Part shown: positions 6,860 to 13,829 of the stretch, piece after piece
Layout: every line of letters starts with the position of its first letter
Numbering within the stretch: position 1 is the first letter of the stretch
Assembly (NCBI RefSeq): GCF_009914755.1
Contig: NC_060927.1
From: the human T2T-CHM13v2.0 reference genome, Homo sapiens
Direction: 5' to 3' (one strand)
DNA length: 64,000 bases
Translations under genes and position numbers: made by a program
Notes under the pieces: generated by a model
Told to the model about the DNA's origin: nothing
What the model saw: only the letters and a program-made list of their open reading frames with translations
Databases searched by the model: none

Positions 6860-7749
6860 CACCAGTTGATTACAAGCAATTTGTTATGGGTGTTCAATAT
6901 CATAACCAAGGGGAAAATGTCTTCTTGAGATAGAATGATAGTTTTAAGAGGCCATTAATTGCTACATTCTGCAAATGTGAGTATGCTTCAACCATGGAAA
7001 ATGGGCATTGGCAATTATGTCAAAGGGCATGAAATGTACTCTATAAGGAAAACAAGATTCAATTGTAAAGGCCAGAGGGAATATTAAGGAAACGGACTCA
7101 GTTAACAATTTGAAAGGCAATATGCTAAGTACCTTAATGTTGTACTTTTTGTATACAGTTTCTCTCAAGTGGAATTAATAAAGGAAACAATTCAAAGCTG
7201 AAACTCATATAAACATGAATATGATGTCTAGATTTATACAATATTCTGATCTGACTTTTATTAAAAATTTTATGAATTGTAATTAATTTGGGTTTCCAGC
7301 TTGAGAGAAATAATGATGTATGTTGAGTTTTATTTTGAGCAACAAACATTAACCATCTCTTCAAAAGTGTAAGTTTCCTAAACCAATCAATAGTAGAATA
7401 TTTGGCAAGTTCATATCTGACCTCAGTAGTTTACAATTTACTTTTTCATTCTCCTTTCATGCATTGATGAAAAGACTAATAACTAAGGGTAACTAATAAC
7501 TAAGGATAAACTAAGGGAAGGTATTTTGTCAACCAAGGAATGAATCAGCAACAGCTAATGGCAAAAACTTAAGCCATTCTTTCTTCCACATGGGTAATAC
7601 CAGAAAAGTTACAGTATTCCTTTGTAAAATTTTGCCTGTAAAAATAATCAAATATCAAGTAAAACCAATACTTTTGTCATACTTAATTACATGTAGAACC
7701 TAATTTTATTATTCATTTATTCATTTTTATTTACAGAACTCACTTTTTA

Positions 7750-8062
<313 letters not shown>

Positions 8063-9554
8063 CACTTTTATTAATTTTATGGCAAAAATTATATGATGGT
8101 GGAGATACTTATGTTTGTCGCCAAACCAAACAGTATTTTTATCCCCTCTTCAGCTTCTTAGCTAAGTATCTTGTCTGATATCTTGCCGTTCTTACTTTCT
8201 TTTTGTGTGGTTGTTCTTATCCTGCTTGTCACATCTCTTAGAACTCCATGTTATTCTGCTGTGCTTTCATCTCTCTCTGGTATGGCTTCACCTTTTGCAC
8301 AGTTTCTTCTTTTGGTAAAATGGTATTTTCCAACGTACTTCCTTTGTTTTCTCTTTGCATCCGACTTCTGTAGCTTTTCCATGTTGATCCAGGCATGGTT
8401 TTTCCTCTTTATCCACTAAAGGACTGTAAACTTTTTTTATTTGTTATTATCTATGGAGTTTTTCTCTGTGATGCCGGACAAACAAATCTTTTCATGTGTC
8501 CAGCAAGGATTGTTCTAAATCTCAAATGTAATAGATCCAGATGTACTACTACCTCTTTATCTTCTGCTTTCTCACCTGGATTTTCCTGAAGGGATTATCA
8601 GCACTTTTCTCCCCATCTTTCCCCAAAGACGTGTTCTCTGCTATATTAGGACAAATAATTAGACCCTTGCATTTTAGTAATGACAGGGATCTTATTTTGG
8701 CTTCCAAACCTCAAGCATATTCTTTCTTCATGGACTATTACATCTTTCTACTCGATTTTTTTCTCACAGGCATCACTGTGGTATCCTCTATGTGTGTCAC
8801 TTTTTGTGAGTAATGATCACCTGTTTTCTTACTATCCTTGCTCACAGACATTCTATTTGTTGTACTAGTTAAAAGATCATATCCTCTATCTTTGTAGGAA
8901 AGACCTCATTTGAGTCACTGGACCTCAAAGGTAACTTGATTTACAATTGATTGCTCTATCTTTTATAACATTCTTACGGGTTTTTTGCATGGGCTCCTCT
9001 TAAACTTCCTCTGCATATGGTATCTCTTTTACTGGGTAGACTAGAAAATATCTCTACCTTTACATTTCTTTTATTCCTGCTTGCAGATATAATCTTGAAG
9101 TTATGCCTCGAATCCCCACTGTATTAGGACCTTATCTGAAGAACTATCAATAGTTTTATTTTCTGCCTCTTTGTTGCCTAAGTTAGTTTCATCAGACAGA
9201 GGATTAGAACCTTCCAGATTACTCCTGTTTCATTTTGGTTTGTGTGAAGTTTTTCTTCTGTATTGACCAAAGATACCACCGGATAAAAATTAATTTTGAT
9301 TATTTTTCTAAGTCTTAAAAATATCTTCTTTCCATTTGTAGATTTAAATTTTTATTGCAAATTCTTCATTAGTTTGTCATTCTTTTCCATGTGTATAATC
9401 CCTGTTGAACTAGCCAAACCATCAGATTCCTGAAGATTTATACCAGTTTTACGTTCTCCCATCTCACTAACCCCCTCCGCACCCCCCCACCCCCCACTAT
9501 GTTACACTCACTGTCTTTTGTTTCATAGCTCCATGTTCTGAGTTTTTCTCTTAG

Positions 9555-9867
<313 letters not shown>

Positions 9868-10016
9868 ATCTTCACAATATTCTTTTAAACTTTATTTACT
9901 TGAATCTTTTCTGTTGATGTAAGCAACTGAGACTCTTGCAGTTTTTATCAGTTCTGTATTTGGGTCTAGGATGTGGGGACATTCTCTGACTCAGCGTTTT
10001 TGAAAATTAAGCTTAT

Positions 10017-10304
<288 letters not shown>

Positions 10305-10730
10305 TTATATTCCTTTATATTAATTTCTCTTTGCACATATCTGTTTGGCTAGGCAAAGGTTTTAGATTCTTGAAAATCTTTATTTTTTAGGGTAGATCTG
10401 GTTCTTTGACTAGCTCAATCTTGCATGTTCTTTGGCCATGTCTCCAGTTTCAGAAGCATTAGTTTTAGATTCATATTAACAAGGATTACAAAAGAAGTTT
10501 TCTTGACAGATCTCCTGGTCGATTCTTATTTTTGTTCATTGGATCAAACATTTCTTCAAATCCATTATATACTTCCAAACGATGTTTTCGTTTGGGTTCT
10601 GTCATAAGTGTTTTCATTCCAATAAGTCTTCAACTGCACTGTTCTTTTTTCTTGATGGTTTCAATAAGTTACTGATAACTCTTGCTTGCGTCAATGTTTT
10701 CTTTTGGTGTTTTAAAAAGTTCCATATGAT

Positions 10731-11235
10731 TGTAATCATAATTGGTTCATCGCCTGATGCACAAGGGAGTTAATATGCAGAGACACCTGGTTGCAGCAGA
10801 GAAAGAGGTTTAATCATAGGGCCACCAAACAGAAGAGGAGATGAGAGAAAACCTCAAATCTGTCTCCCTGAGGATTTTGGTTTTGGAGTGGGCCAAAGTG
10901 TTGAGCTCGTTGATTGGTCAGAGTACAAAGGTGTGGTCATGGGGCAGCATCAGTATTCTTATGCTCATTTGGGTCCTCTGTGGTGGTCTTCAAACTGGTT
11001 GTCTCAGCTGTACTTCTGGAATTTAGGATCTGCTGAAGCAATTCTTAAACAAGAGTTTTATCATTTAAAGATCAGAAGTCCTATTTATGGAAAGAATGGG
11101 GATGCAACTGGTTAGTATCTAGTGCCACCCTGACTTTTGATTACAAGGAAGTGGGCCAAAGTACAGCCTGATTAATGCTTAATTGTAGCTGTATATCTGT
11201 CCAGAATTCTTGTTAACGCTGTAAGGAGGGCTTCA
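10731..11235 (-). mobile_element. Solo ERV1-class LTR (MER4-group like; subfamily uncertain)
   Basis: TG...CA bounded ~500 bp; GTTGCAGCAGAGAAAGAGGTTTAAT...GAAAACCTCAAATCTGTCTCCCTGAGG typical of reverse ERV1 LTRs. Confidence 0.65.
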
Positions 11236-11377
11236 TGGTCAGTTGACTAACCTTAAAAAAAGTTTTGTATGGTCTTCCACATCTTCTTTTGATTGAAAAC
11301 TTGTACAATCAAATTTGAACTCTAAATAAAATCTCTGTATGTTCTATATATTTTTTTCTAGTGCTTGGCTTTCTTGA

Positions 11378-11728
<351 letters not shown>

Positions 11729-11951
11729 TAGTTCTGTCTAATATAGTTGAATGCGTACTAAGGGTTTCCTATGAGCAAGCTTTTTAGAATTTGGAGTTTC
11801 TAAGATTCTATAAGCATTGGAATGTCTGCCAGATCTTCTACTAGATATACCTTAGAAATTTTCAAAAGTGTCTTGATGCCTGTAAAATTTTCTACCGATT
11901 CACATCTCCACAAAAGAGTTGTCATGAGGTTCTTGACACTTGTCAAATCTT

Positions 11952-12256
11952 GGTCAGGTGCAGTGGCTCACATCTGTGATACCAGCACTTTTGGAGGCCA
12001 AGGCAGGTGGTTCGAGACCTGGCCTTGAGGCCAGGCATTCAAGACCAGCCTGGGCAACATGGTGAAACCCCATCTCTACTAAAAATACAAAAATTAGCCA
12101 GTGTAATGGTGCACACCTGTAATCCCAGGTACTCAGGAGGATGAGGCATGAGAATCTCTCGAACCCAGAAAGCGGAGGTTACAGTGAACCAAGACAGCAC
12201 CAGTGCACTCCAGCCTGAGCGACAAAGTGAGACTGTCTCAAGAAAGAAAAAAAAAA
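11952..12256 (+). mobile_element. Alu (diverged, AluJ/S)
   Basis: Alu body and A-rich tail. Confidence 0.92.
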
Positions 12257-12384
12257 TATTCTCCTTGTTTTCTTTTTTTTTTCTAGTGGAAACAGAATCC
12301 AACTGGGCTTTATTTTACTTTTATTCCTTTTACAAATATTTCTTGAGAACATACTAAGTTCAAGTCACCGTTTTCATCTTTTTC

Positions 12385-12569
12385 ATTTTTTTACATTTTA
12401 GTTGACATATAATAATTGTACATATTTATGAGATACATAGTGATGTTATGATACCTATAATGTGTGGTGACCAGACCAGGGTAATTAGCAGATCATCATC
12501 TCAAACATTTATCATTTGTTTGTGTTGGGGACATTCAGTATCCTCCTTCTAGCTATTTGAAACTATTTA

Positions 12570-12572
<3 letters not shown>
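12385..12572 (-). mobile_element. L1 (L1MA-like) 3' end fragment
   Basis: TTTTAGTTGACATATAATAATTGTACATATTTATG...CATCATCTCAAACATTTATCATT typical of a reverse L1M 3' end. Confidence 0.7.
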
Positions 12573-12621
<49 letters not shown>

Positions 12622-12725
12622 TTGCTATGTTGCTCAGGCTAGTCTCCAACTCCTTTACTCAAGTGATCCTCCAACCTTGGCCTCCCGAAGTGCTGGGATT
12701 ACAGACGTCAACGACTGCGCCGGCC
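12573..12725 (-). mobile_element. (GT)n microsatellite plus Alu left monomer (FLAM-like)
   Basis: About 24 GT units followed by a reverse Alu monomer. Confidence 0.85.
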
Positions 12726-13829
12726 TTTATTTCTTTAGGAGTTTTGGTCTATTGGTGCCTGTCAGGTCTTCCATGGGTTCAATCTTTTTCACAGAAGTTC
12801 TTAGAAATTTCTTGATTGTTGTAAGAAGTCCAGCTGATTCGCACTGAGCCCTGGGTACTGTCCCAAGTTTCTTGTTGATTGTCCTCTGGGTTGGCAATTG
12901 GCTGTGGAGTTTTCCCAAGGCCCTTGGTTTCTGTTGGGTCTTCCGCCAGTTCTGGCTTTTCTTTAGGTATCCTAAACAATCTCTTGCTCCCTGTGAGGTT
13001 TCACCATTTCCACTTGGCAGATCTGGGGTTCTTGTTGCTTTCACTCTCTAGCTGTGCTGTCTGCTTTGGCATTTTCATAAGCCCTTTGATGCCTGTCAGG
13101 TTTTCTTCCTGACTGCATTTTCCCCAGTCATCCCCAGCAGTCTCCTGGGTTTGTGCTTTGAAGTGTTCCTAAACTTTCTGTTGACATCATCAACATTTAT
13201 TTGTTCCTCTAGTTCTTTCGGTGTTTACAGGAGCTCTCTGATAGCTGCCAGTCTTCTGTGGGTTTTGGTTTTATTTTAAGTGTCCTGGCATTTTCATGAG
13301 AATTCTTAGAGTTTCCGCTGGTTCTGTTTTGTGCTTTGGAGTGCTCATAAGATTTCTATGGGTGTTTCACCACTTAATTTGTTCCTCTGGTTCTTTCAGT
13401 GATTGTGGGTGCTCTCTGATACCTGCCAGGTCTTCCACAGCTTTTGCCTTTTCTTCAGCTCTTTTCATCAGTCTCTTGAGGAATGTTAGAGTTTCTATGG
13501 GTTCCCTATTATGCTTTGCAGTGCTCCTAAGATTTTTATGGCTACCTATTTTAGTAAACATCTGTAATCAGTTGTAATTAGTAATTTCATTAGTGAATTC
13601 CTGAAATTTATAGTTGCTGAGTTTGAACTCTGGCAATTCACTTTGATAAGTTAAATATCATTATTTCTAGCTTGCTCTGATTTAACATTCGGTAGCATTT
13701 ACATTTTAGCCTTTCTTCCAAAAAATAAAATATAGGCATTCATCCAACTTTAGATATAAGCTCAACATTTGCTGTGAGGGTGACACTTTTCATTTCTATC
13801 ATGATGACTATAACAAAAATAACTATAAT

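What the first reader, a model, noticed from the sequence alone, without database searches (positions are those of the whole stretch)
13185..13545. About 180-bp (60-aa) higher-order repeat built from ~20-aa Ki-67 subunits: possible intermediate in Ki-67 repeat evolution
Seen: GTTCCTCT recurs at 13203 and 13381, 178 bp apart, within two aligned units: HKNLRSTAKHNREPIETLTFLKRLMKRAEEKAKAVEDLAGIREHPQSLKEPEEQIK and, correcting frameshifts, HRNLMSTPKHKTEPAETLRILMKMP..LKIKPKPTEDxAAIRELL*TPKELEEQIN. Known: eutherian MKI67 has ~122-aa repeats containing FMGTPVQKLD...TPKEKAQALEDLAGFKELFQTP, while non-eutherian Ki-67 proteins have shorter repeat units. Inference: the spacing here matches that eutherian core, but the period is about half. 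The copy may therefore preserve an older repeat architecture rather than derive from modern MKI67 mRNA.
Basis: partly seen in the sequence, partly recalled or inferred. Interest (0 to 1): 0.7.

Follow-up and report, generated by a model that had tools for sequence, protein, structure and literature searches.

The report
Fossil of an ancestral Ki-67 gene
A broken copy of the back half of the cell-division marker gene Ki-67 lies on human chromosome 3 and keeps half-size repeats and a long tail that today's human gene lacks, so it is likely an early-placental snapshot showing how the gene's repeats would have been built up by doubling.

Summary
Two minus-strand units of about 180 bp (13540-13361, 13360-13183) are 75% identical. 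They are only the 5' tip of a 3.45-kb decayed MKI67 copy (13545 to 7727) split by Alu, L1 and LTR insertions and absent from the RefSeq table. It joins exons 13|14 and 14|15, ends in 3'UTR plus an A-rich run and shows no trace of the FHA/PP1 half: most likely a 5'-truncated processed pseudogene. It is not a deleted copy of primate MKI67 (AU p 0.002). It has 60-aa units, then 20-aa monomers, an end-of-array motif found in 0 of 163 boreoeutherian Ki-67s, and about 860 codons of tail where boreoeutherians have about 200. It is collinear with an intact unnamed Ki-67 (P0165; 60-aa repeats) that branches outside Boreoeutheria. The human 122-aa repeat splits into two homologous 61-aa halves, and the units match one of them. 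Likely path: 20 to 60 to 122 aa. Open: whether the parent was MKI67's direct ancestor or a lost paralogue; the unit tree leans to P0165's side and the date is tight. A dead fossil, useful for Ki-67 evolution.

The parts
13361..13540 (-). U1, first 60-codon Ki-67 unit (three ~20-aa sub-motifs); homology begins at about 13545-13560
13183..13360 (-). U2, second 60-codon unit, two frameshifts and a stop; 75% identical to U1
12729..13182 (-). Start of a third unit, then 20-aa monomer motifs; its end is homologous to the 3' end of human exon 13
12386..12728 (-). Later insertions: 3' fragment of a high-copy L1-like repeat (12386-12565) and a nested Alu-monomer-like element with TG run (12574-12728); family names recalled, not from a repeat library
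12261..12385 (-). Degenerate stretch between insertions, probably more array; weakly aligned
   Evidence: inference
11952..12260 (+). Alu insertion
11690..11951 (-). Last three 20-aa monomers and start of the post-array spacer; best matches are marsupial-like and monotreme-like Ki-67s
11389..11689 (-). Alu insertion with 15-bp target-site duplication
11247..11388 (-). Post-array spacer, collinear with P0165
10755..11246 (+). Old dispersed LTR-like insertion (class recalled); best genomic relatives 71-74% by BLAST over the full length, K2P 0.24; sets a minimum age
10309..10754 (-). End-of-array motif (EPK...Y.GF.EMF type) and tail collinear with P0165; absent from boreoeutherian Ki-67
10017..10308 (+). 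Alu insertion with target-site duplication
9870..10016 (-). Intronless exon 13|14 junction; human exon 14 starts aligning at 9984
9560..9869 (-). Alu insertion with 17-bp target-site duplication
8063..9559 (-). Long LR-domain tail, intronless exon 14|15 junction near 8222, old stop near 8163, start of 3'UTR
7741..8062 (-). Alu insertion in the 3'UTR
7701..7740 (-). End of 3'UTR match (7727) followed by an A-rich run, possibly a decayed poly(A) tail
   Evidence: tail is inference

Best explanation
The two 180-bp units are the front end of a broken 3.45-kb copy of the back half of MKI67 that lacks the last two introns and keeps 60-aa units, 20-aa monomers and a long tail missing from human Ki-67; it is likely a dead retrocopy made in early placental mammals from the ancestor of today's gene. 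Mechanism. Shown: joined exons, 3'UTR end, stops and frameshifts, neutral-looking decay, later insertions, collinearity with a non-boreoeutherian Ki-67, homology of the two halves of the 122-aa repeat. Inferred: L1 machinery reverse-transcribed a Ki-67 mRNA from a proximal poly(A) site and stalled about 3.4 kb in; the copy never had a promoter or the FHA/PP1 half and decayed at once. Inferred for the parent gene: a triplet of the ancient 20-aa motif became a 60-aa unit; on the boreoeutherian stem two such units diverged (halves A and B) and were amplified as a 122-aa dimer, while the monomer array and about 650 aa of tail were deleted; P0165's lineage amplified the 60-aa unit itself. No present function is proposed.
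For: Retrocopy: human exon 14 start aligns at 9984 directly after P0165-collinear coding sequence (98 of 155, score 62, 0 of 100 shuffles). Exon 15 plus 3'UTR aligns at 96 of 134 (0 of 500 shuffles). A 28-mer from the end of exon 14 matches 21 of 28 at 8257, just before the exon 15 match, the only such site among 63,972 minus-strand positions; human introns 13 and 14 are 877 and 2,002 bp. No FHA, PP1 or conserved-domain remnant in the window (best E 1.3 or worse), while the same profiles find the chr10 exons. Dead: 15 stops and 19 frameshifts over 689 aligned codons; U1/U2 differences 14, 15, 14 of 58 by codon position. Old architecture: P0165 aligns from 13538 to about 8950, score 459 v shuffle maximum 113; post-array tail score 340 v maximum 70 among 163 boreoeutherian proteins; across the human genome the C-terminal half of P0165 hits only this locus, its N-terminal half hits MKI67 (stricter first look, so a floor). 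P0165 branches outside 23 boreoeutherian Ki-67s (99.1/99) and inside marsupial-like ones (93.1/99). Top period 112-123 aa in 156 of 163 boreoeutherian proteins. Halves A and B are homologous (hhalign E 1e-5); U1/U2 score 84/83 against the B consensus (shuffle maxima 43/41). Age: K2P to MKI67 blocks 0.33-0.53 v 0.08 for the chrX retrocopy; the inserted LTR-like element is 0.24 from its closest relatives; short ORFs from other genomes at 43-57% identity match this copy, P0194 hitting it at E 7e-11 v 2.7e-4 for MKI67.
Against: The unit tree puts U1/U2 with P0165 units (UFBoot 95), not with A/B, though shared old characters could do that and the alternatives are not rejected. U1-U2 K2P 0.305 (0.21-0.41) gives at most about 0.15 per copy, at or slightly under the human-to-boreoeutherian-ancestor distance (about 0.16-0.19, recalled), so the time window is tight. 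The boreoeutherian stem in the conserved-domain tree is long (0.137, as long as the 0.130 branch below it). The exon 14|15 extension adds only 5 points to the local DNA score (65 v 60). No significant target-site duplication for the whole element. Intron positions in the ancestral gene are assumed equal to human. P0165 is unnamed and without genomic context. The end-of-array profile separates the copy from boreoeutherians by little (17.4 v 15.5 bits). Short, frameshifted 5' exons could escape.
Confidence: 0.65

Rival explanations
1. Retrocopy of a lost paralogue: early placentals carried two Ki-67 genes, a long-tailed 60-aa type (surviving as P0165) and the lineage that became boreoeutherian MKI67; the chr3 copy came from the first, which humans lost. 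The 60-aa unit is then a sister state, not the direct ancestor of the 122-aa repeat.
For: U1/U2 group with P0165 units (UFBoot 95; best tree in AU test). Long boreoeutherian stem. P0165 is only 116 of 207 identical to gorilla in the PP1/conserved region, near marsupial-like values (111 of 218, 117 of 225) and far below mouse (169 of 221). Per-copy decay of 0.15 would fit an insertion after the short-tailed gene existed. MKI67 has duplicated in tandem at least once.
Against: No second long-tailed relic was found in the human genome (floors only). The chr10 tandem relic is of the short-tailed type. Fast evolution of one gene explains the same trees with fewer events; alternatives not rejected (p-AU 0.22-0.30).
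Confidence: 0.22
2. Dead gene in place: the locus was once an expressed Ki-67-like gene (possibly the orthologue of P0165) whose 5' half was deleted or has decayed beyond detection.
For: Closest full-length relative is an intact protein collinear over about 700 codons; homology begins at the unit that matches the first unit of P0165 and of marsupial-like arrays.
Against: No introns at either junction; no N-terminal exons; even spread of U1/U2 differences over codon positions; the N-terminal half of P0165 maps to MKI67 exons on chr10; the other-genome ORFs are short and broken too.
Confidence: 0.08
3. Ordinary retrocopy of modern primate MKI67 with internal deletions that halved the period.
For: Both units match half B of the 122-aa repeat better than half A; the 3' end of human exon 13 is recognisable at 12900-12730; units inside the whole B clade are not rejected (p-AU 0.22).
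Against: One 48-bp blastn hit only; U1-U2 75% v 62-64% to B halves; placement among great-ape B halves rejected (p-AU 0.002); about 650 extra codons with homology to P0165 and marsupial-like proteins that no deletion can create; no match of that extra sequence to human intron 13 (65 of 100 shuffles score as high).
Confidence: 0.02

Closest known systems
MKI67 / Ki-67 (human chr10; Pfam KI67R PF08065)
   Same: Ki-67 motif, order repeat array - exon 13 end - LR domain - 3'UTR; units match half B of the 122-aa repeat.
   Different: Period 60 not 122; extra 20-aa monomers, end-of-array motif and about 650 more codons of tail; no FHA/PP1 half; no introns; broken.
chrX processed MKI67 copy at 45.968-45.970 Mb (probably MKI67P1; name recalled)
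   Same: 5'-truncated, exons 13-14-15 joined, ends early in the 3'UTR.
   Different: 92% identical to MKI67 (K2P 0.08), modern architecture; the chr3 copy is 4-6 times more diverged.
Unnamed Ki-67 P0165 (2,538 aa; FHA and PP1 domains)
   Same: 59-60-aa units, then monomer remnant and 849-aa tail, collinear.
   Different: Intact; 17 units counted between residues 553 and 1564; has lost most monomers and the end-of-array motif that the chr3 copy keeps.
Non-placental Ki-67 (marsupial-, monotreme-, bird-like P0164, P0166, P0176, P0174; chicken repeats ~60 aa per PMC8354752)
   Same: 20-aa monomer arrays, end-of-array motif, long LR tail; degenerate triplets at the array front align with U1/U2.
   Different: Their arrays are mostly homogeneous 20-21-aa repeats; the chicken '60 aa' may be a triplet of monomers and was not shown to share descent with the placental unit.

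Membership tests
Processed pseudogene | Introns of the parent absent at exon junctions | tested here: met
   13|14 at 9984 and 14|15 near 8222; assumes ancestral introns at the human positions
Processed pseudogene | Ends in 3'UTR with poly(A) remnant | tested here: inconclusive
   3'UTR match to 7727 is significant (0 of 500 shuffles); the A-rich run after it is only suggestive
Processed pseudogene | Target-site duplication | tested here: inconclusive
   Best pair is an AT-rich 11-mer with one mismatch, chance level; not expected to survive at this age
Processed pseudogene | 5' truncation, no promoter or 5' exons | tested here: met
   No FHA/PP1/conserved-domain signal in the window, controls positive; sensitivity for short broken exons is limited
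Processed pseudogene | Disabled frame, neutral decay | tested here: met
   15 stops, 19 frameshifts, seven insertion blocks; codon positions 14/15/14 of 58
Processed pseudogene | Empty site in outgroup genomes | not testable with these tools
   No other mammalian genomes are held
Ki-67 family (homology) | KI67R repeat above Pfam cut-off | tested here: not met
   24.8 v 32.4 bits, E 3.5e-5; the more intact homologous ORF P0194 passes (38.8 bits)
Ki-67 family (homology) | LR domain and collinear C-terminal half | tested here: met
Ki-67 family (homology) | FHA and PP1-binding domains | tested here: not met
Boreoeutherian-type MKI67 copy | 122-aa A+B repeat and ~200-aa tail | tested here: not met
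   Period 178-180 bp, both units B-like, about 858 codons of tail

The most novel reading that the evidence does not exclude
Hidden paralogy: early placentals had two Ki-67 genes, boreoeutherians and the P0165 lineage each kept a different one, and this retrocopy is the only trace in the human genome of the lost, long-tailed Ki-67.
Probability: 0.22. Interest if true: 0.68.

Novelty: new member of a known kind. Interest (0 to 1): 0.48.

Why it matters
Why Ki-67 repeats differ so much in size and number between vertebrates is called an unanswered enigma in a review (PMC8354752, section 3). This locus, with P0165, gives a concrete and testable path, 20-aa motif to 60-aa triplet to 122-aa dimer, and shows that the human protein probably lost about 650 aa, including most of a longer chromatin-binding tail. 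That suggests natural constructs (60-aa arrays, long tail) for testing what repeat size does to the chromosome coat. It is also an unannotated pseudogene that DNA search misses because its parent has since been rebuilt. It has no evident function today, which caps the interest.

Tried and rejected
Word-index protein search with U1 found nothing (24 candidates, none at E 10 or better; limited to 103-2,000 aa). Two further searches listed only boreoeutherians in their top 120 of 253 and of 358 hits, so no named afrotherian, xenarthran or marsupial protein was seen; labels such as 'marsupial-like' rest on my tree and on recalled sequence style. Sub-hypothesis 'U1 = half B, U2 = half A, so U1+U2 is the proto-dimer': rejected, both match B (84/83) better than A (51/43). 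'Lost tail became human intron 13': rejected. 'The chr10 tandem relic is the parent': rejected, no DNA match and short-tailed type. Third-sub-motif scores do not single out P0165 for U2 (monomers score higher). A profile of boreoeutherian C-termini found only two weak pieces (E 2e-4, 0.025); human LR protein alone did not beat shuffles. The tree used a wrong reading frame and is discarded; one search replaces it, with supports read. Literature searches (listings and abstract starts) showed no paper on this locus or on a 60-to-122-aa origin; pseudogene catalogues and supplements were not searched and may list it.

Full report
Observation. The 8-mer is at 13203 and 13381. Two minus-strand units, U1 13540-13361 and U2 13360-13183, align at 131 of 174 columns, far beyond 200 shuffles; a third unit starts and fades. 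U1 matches Pfam KI67R at E 3.5e-5, under the cut-off, and a genome-wide KI67R search returns MKI67, a chrX copy, this locus (E 0.31) and a relic upstream of MKI67.

Extent. Ki-67 homology continues to 7727. With seven insertion blocks removed (boundaries from target-site duplications where clear; repeat names recalled) the element is 3,450 bases. It has no row in the RefSeq table supplied and lies in an intron of the TRIM59-IFT80 readthrough, same strand. DNA searches with two parts find only the locus itself.

Closest relatives. A full HMMER scan with the read-through frame returned 50 proteins; the best are Ki-67s with 20-aa arrays and one, P0165, with 59-60-aa units. A frameshift-aware alignment of P0165 from residue 1381 covers 13538 to about 8950: score 459, 37% identity over 689 codons, 19 frameshifts, 15 stops, shuffle maximum 113; marsupial-like P0166 and P0176 score 396 and 286; gorilla scored 138 on an earlier, rougher strip. 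For the post-array tail P0165 scores 340, P0166 106, and 163 boreoeutherian proteins (isoforms included) at most 70. On FHA, PP1 and conserved blocks P0165 falls outside 23 boreoeutherian sequences and inside marsupial-like ones; I infer an afrotherian or xenarthran orthologue, but it is unnamed. Independently, a genome-wide search with P0165 hits MKI67 exons with its N-terminal half and only this locus with its C-terminal half.

Architecture. Order on the copy: two 60-aa units and the start of a third, at least seven recognisable 20-aa motifs, a spacer, an end-of-array motif, then about 1.9 kb of tail. The motif pattern is in the copy, in 11 of 36 long unnamed proteins and in 0 of 163 boreoeutherian ones; the profile margin is small. 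From the motif near the end of human exon 13 to the stop there are about 858 codons here, 849 aa in P0165 and a median of 200 in the 27 boreoeutherian proteins where the pattern matched. The top period is 112-123 aa in 156 of 163 boreoeutherian proteins; a 58-62 signal passes 30% of it in 1 of 163.

Origin. Human exon 14 starts aligning at 9984 with no gap after P0165-collinear sequence; the end of exon 14 and exon 15 with 3'UTR align contiguously to 7727 (140 of 206), followed by an A-rich run. No N-terminal domain is found in the window. The younger chrX copy shows the same anatomy at 92% identity. I infer an L1-made, 5'-truncated retrocopy, dead from the start: U1/U2 differences are even over codon positions.

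Age. It is older than an inserted LTR-like element that is K2P 0.24 from its 11 closest relatives (at least 0.12 per copy) and, barring conversion between units, no older than half the U1-U2 distance, 0.15 (0.11-0.21). With a recalled 0.16-0.19 to the boreoeutherian ancestor this brackets roughly 75-110 million years.

Repeat evolution. Boreoeutherian repeats split into homologous halves A and B (E 1e-5, probability 62%); U1 and U2 match B, then P0165 units, then A. At DNA level U1+U2 form their own clade (99) apart from human A and B. In a 60-column protein tree rooted on monomers, U1/U2 are short branches grouped with P0165 units (95), A+B group at 86, and all placental units at 90; only placement among great-ape B halves is rejected. 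The likely path is 20 to 60 to 122 aa, with loss of monomers and tail in boreoeutherians. The grouping with P0165, the long boreoeutherian stem and the tight date leave a lost-paralogue parent open (0.22).

Literature. PMC8354752 (passages and first part of section 3 read) gives 16 human repeats of ~120 aa, ~60-aa repeats in chicken, and calls the variability an enigma; 'pseudogene' does not occur in its text. bioRxiv 10.64898/2026.06.18.733134 (passages only) gives 13 repeats of 29 aa for Xenopus. Seven searches listed nothing on this locus; supplements and pseudogene catalogues were not seen.

Verdict. Real, larger than reported, most likely an ancient processed pseudogene that preserves an extinct Ki-67 layout. 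New member of a known kind; interest 0.48.

Noticed in passing
G000:C10:129,028,500-129,040,540 minus (L025-L027; L021): Degenerate tandem duplicate of MKI67 just upstream of the gene: FHA exons (129,036,690-129,036,410), exon 12, one repeat half with the end of exon 13, exon 14, and matching intron sequence at 65-77% identity; short-tailed type. Annotation status not checked.
   Followed up: partly
L030 (G000:C23:45,967,850-45,969,715 minus): Young processed MKI67 copy, exons 13-14-15 joined, 91-92% identical, Alu inserted at the 14|15 junction region, ends about 40 bases after the stop.
   Followed up: yes
P0165: Intact unnamed Ki-67 with about 18 units of 59-60 aa that Pfam KI67R does not recognise; top autocorrelation at 119 suggests it is forming its own dimer period.
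   Followed up: partly
P0135, P0137, P0139; P0060, P0080: Horseshoe/leaf-nosed bat Ki-67s show a top period of 81 aa and mole-rat Ki-67s 56 aa beside the 122 signal: further lineage-specific repeat remodelling.
   Followed up: no
P0178, P0207: Non-mammalian-branching Ki-67s with a strong 122- or 119-aa period besides the 20-aa array; probably an unrelated repeat elsewhere in the protein.
   Followed up: no
G000:C10:129,048,274-129,049,059 minus (L027): GC-rich 262-codon open frame about 24 kb upstream of MKI67, CpG-island-like.
   Followed up: no
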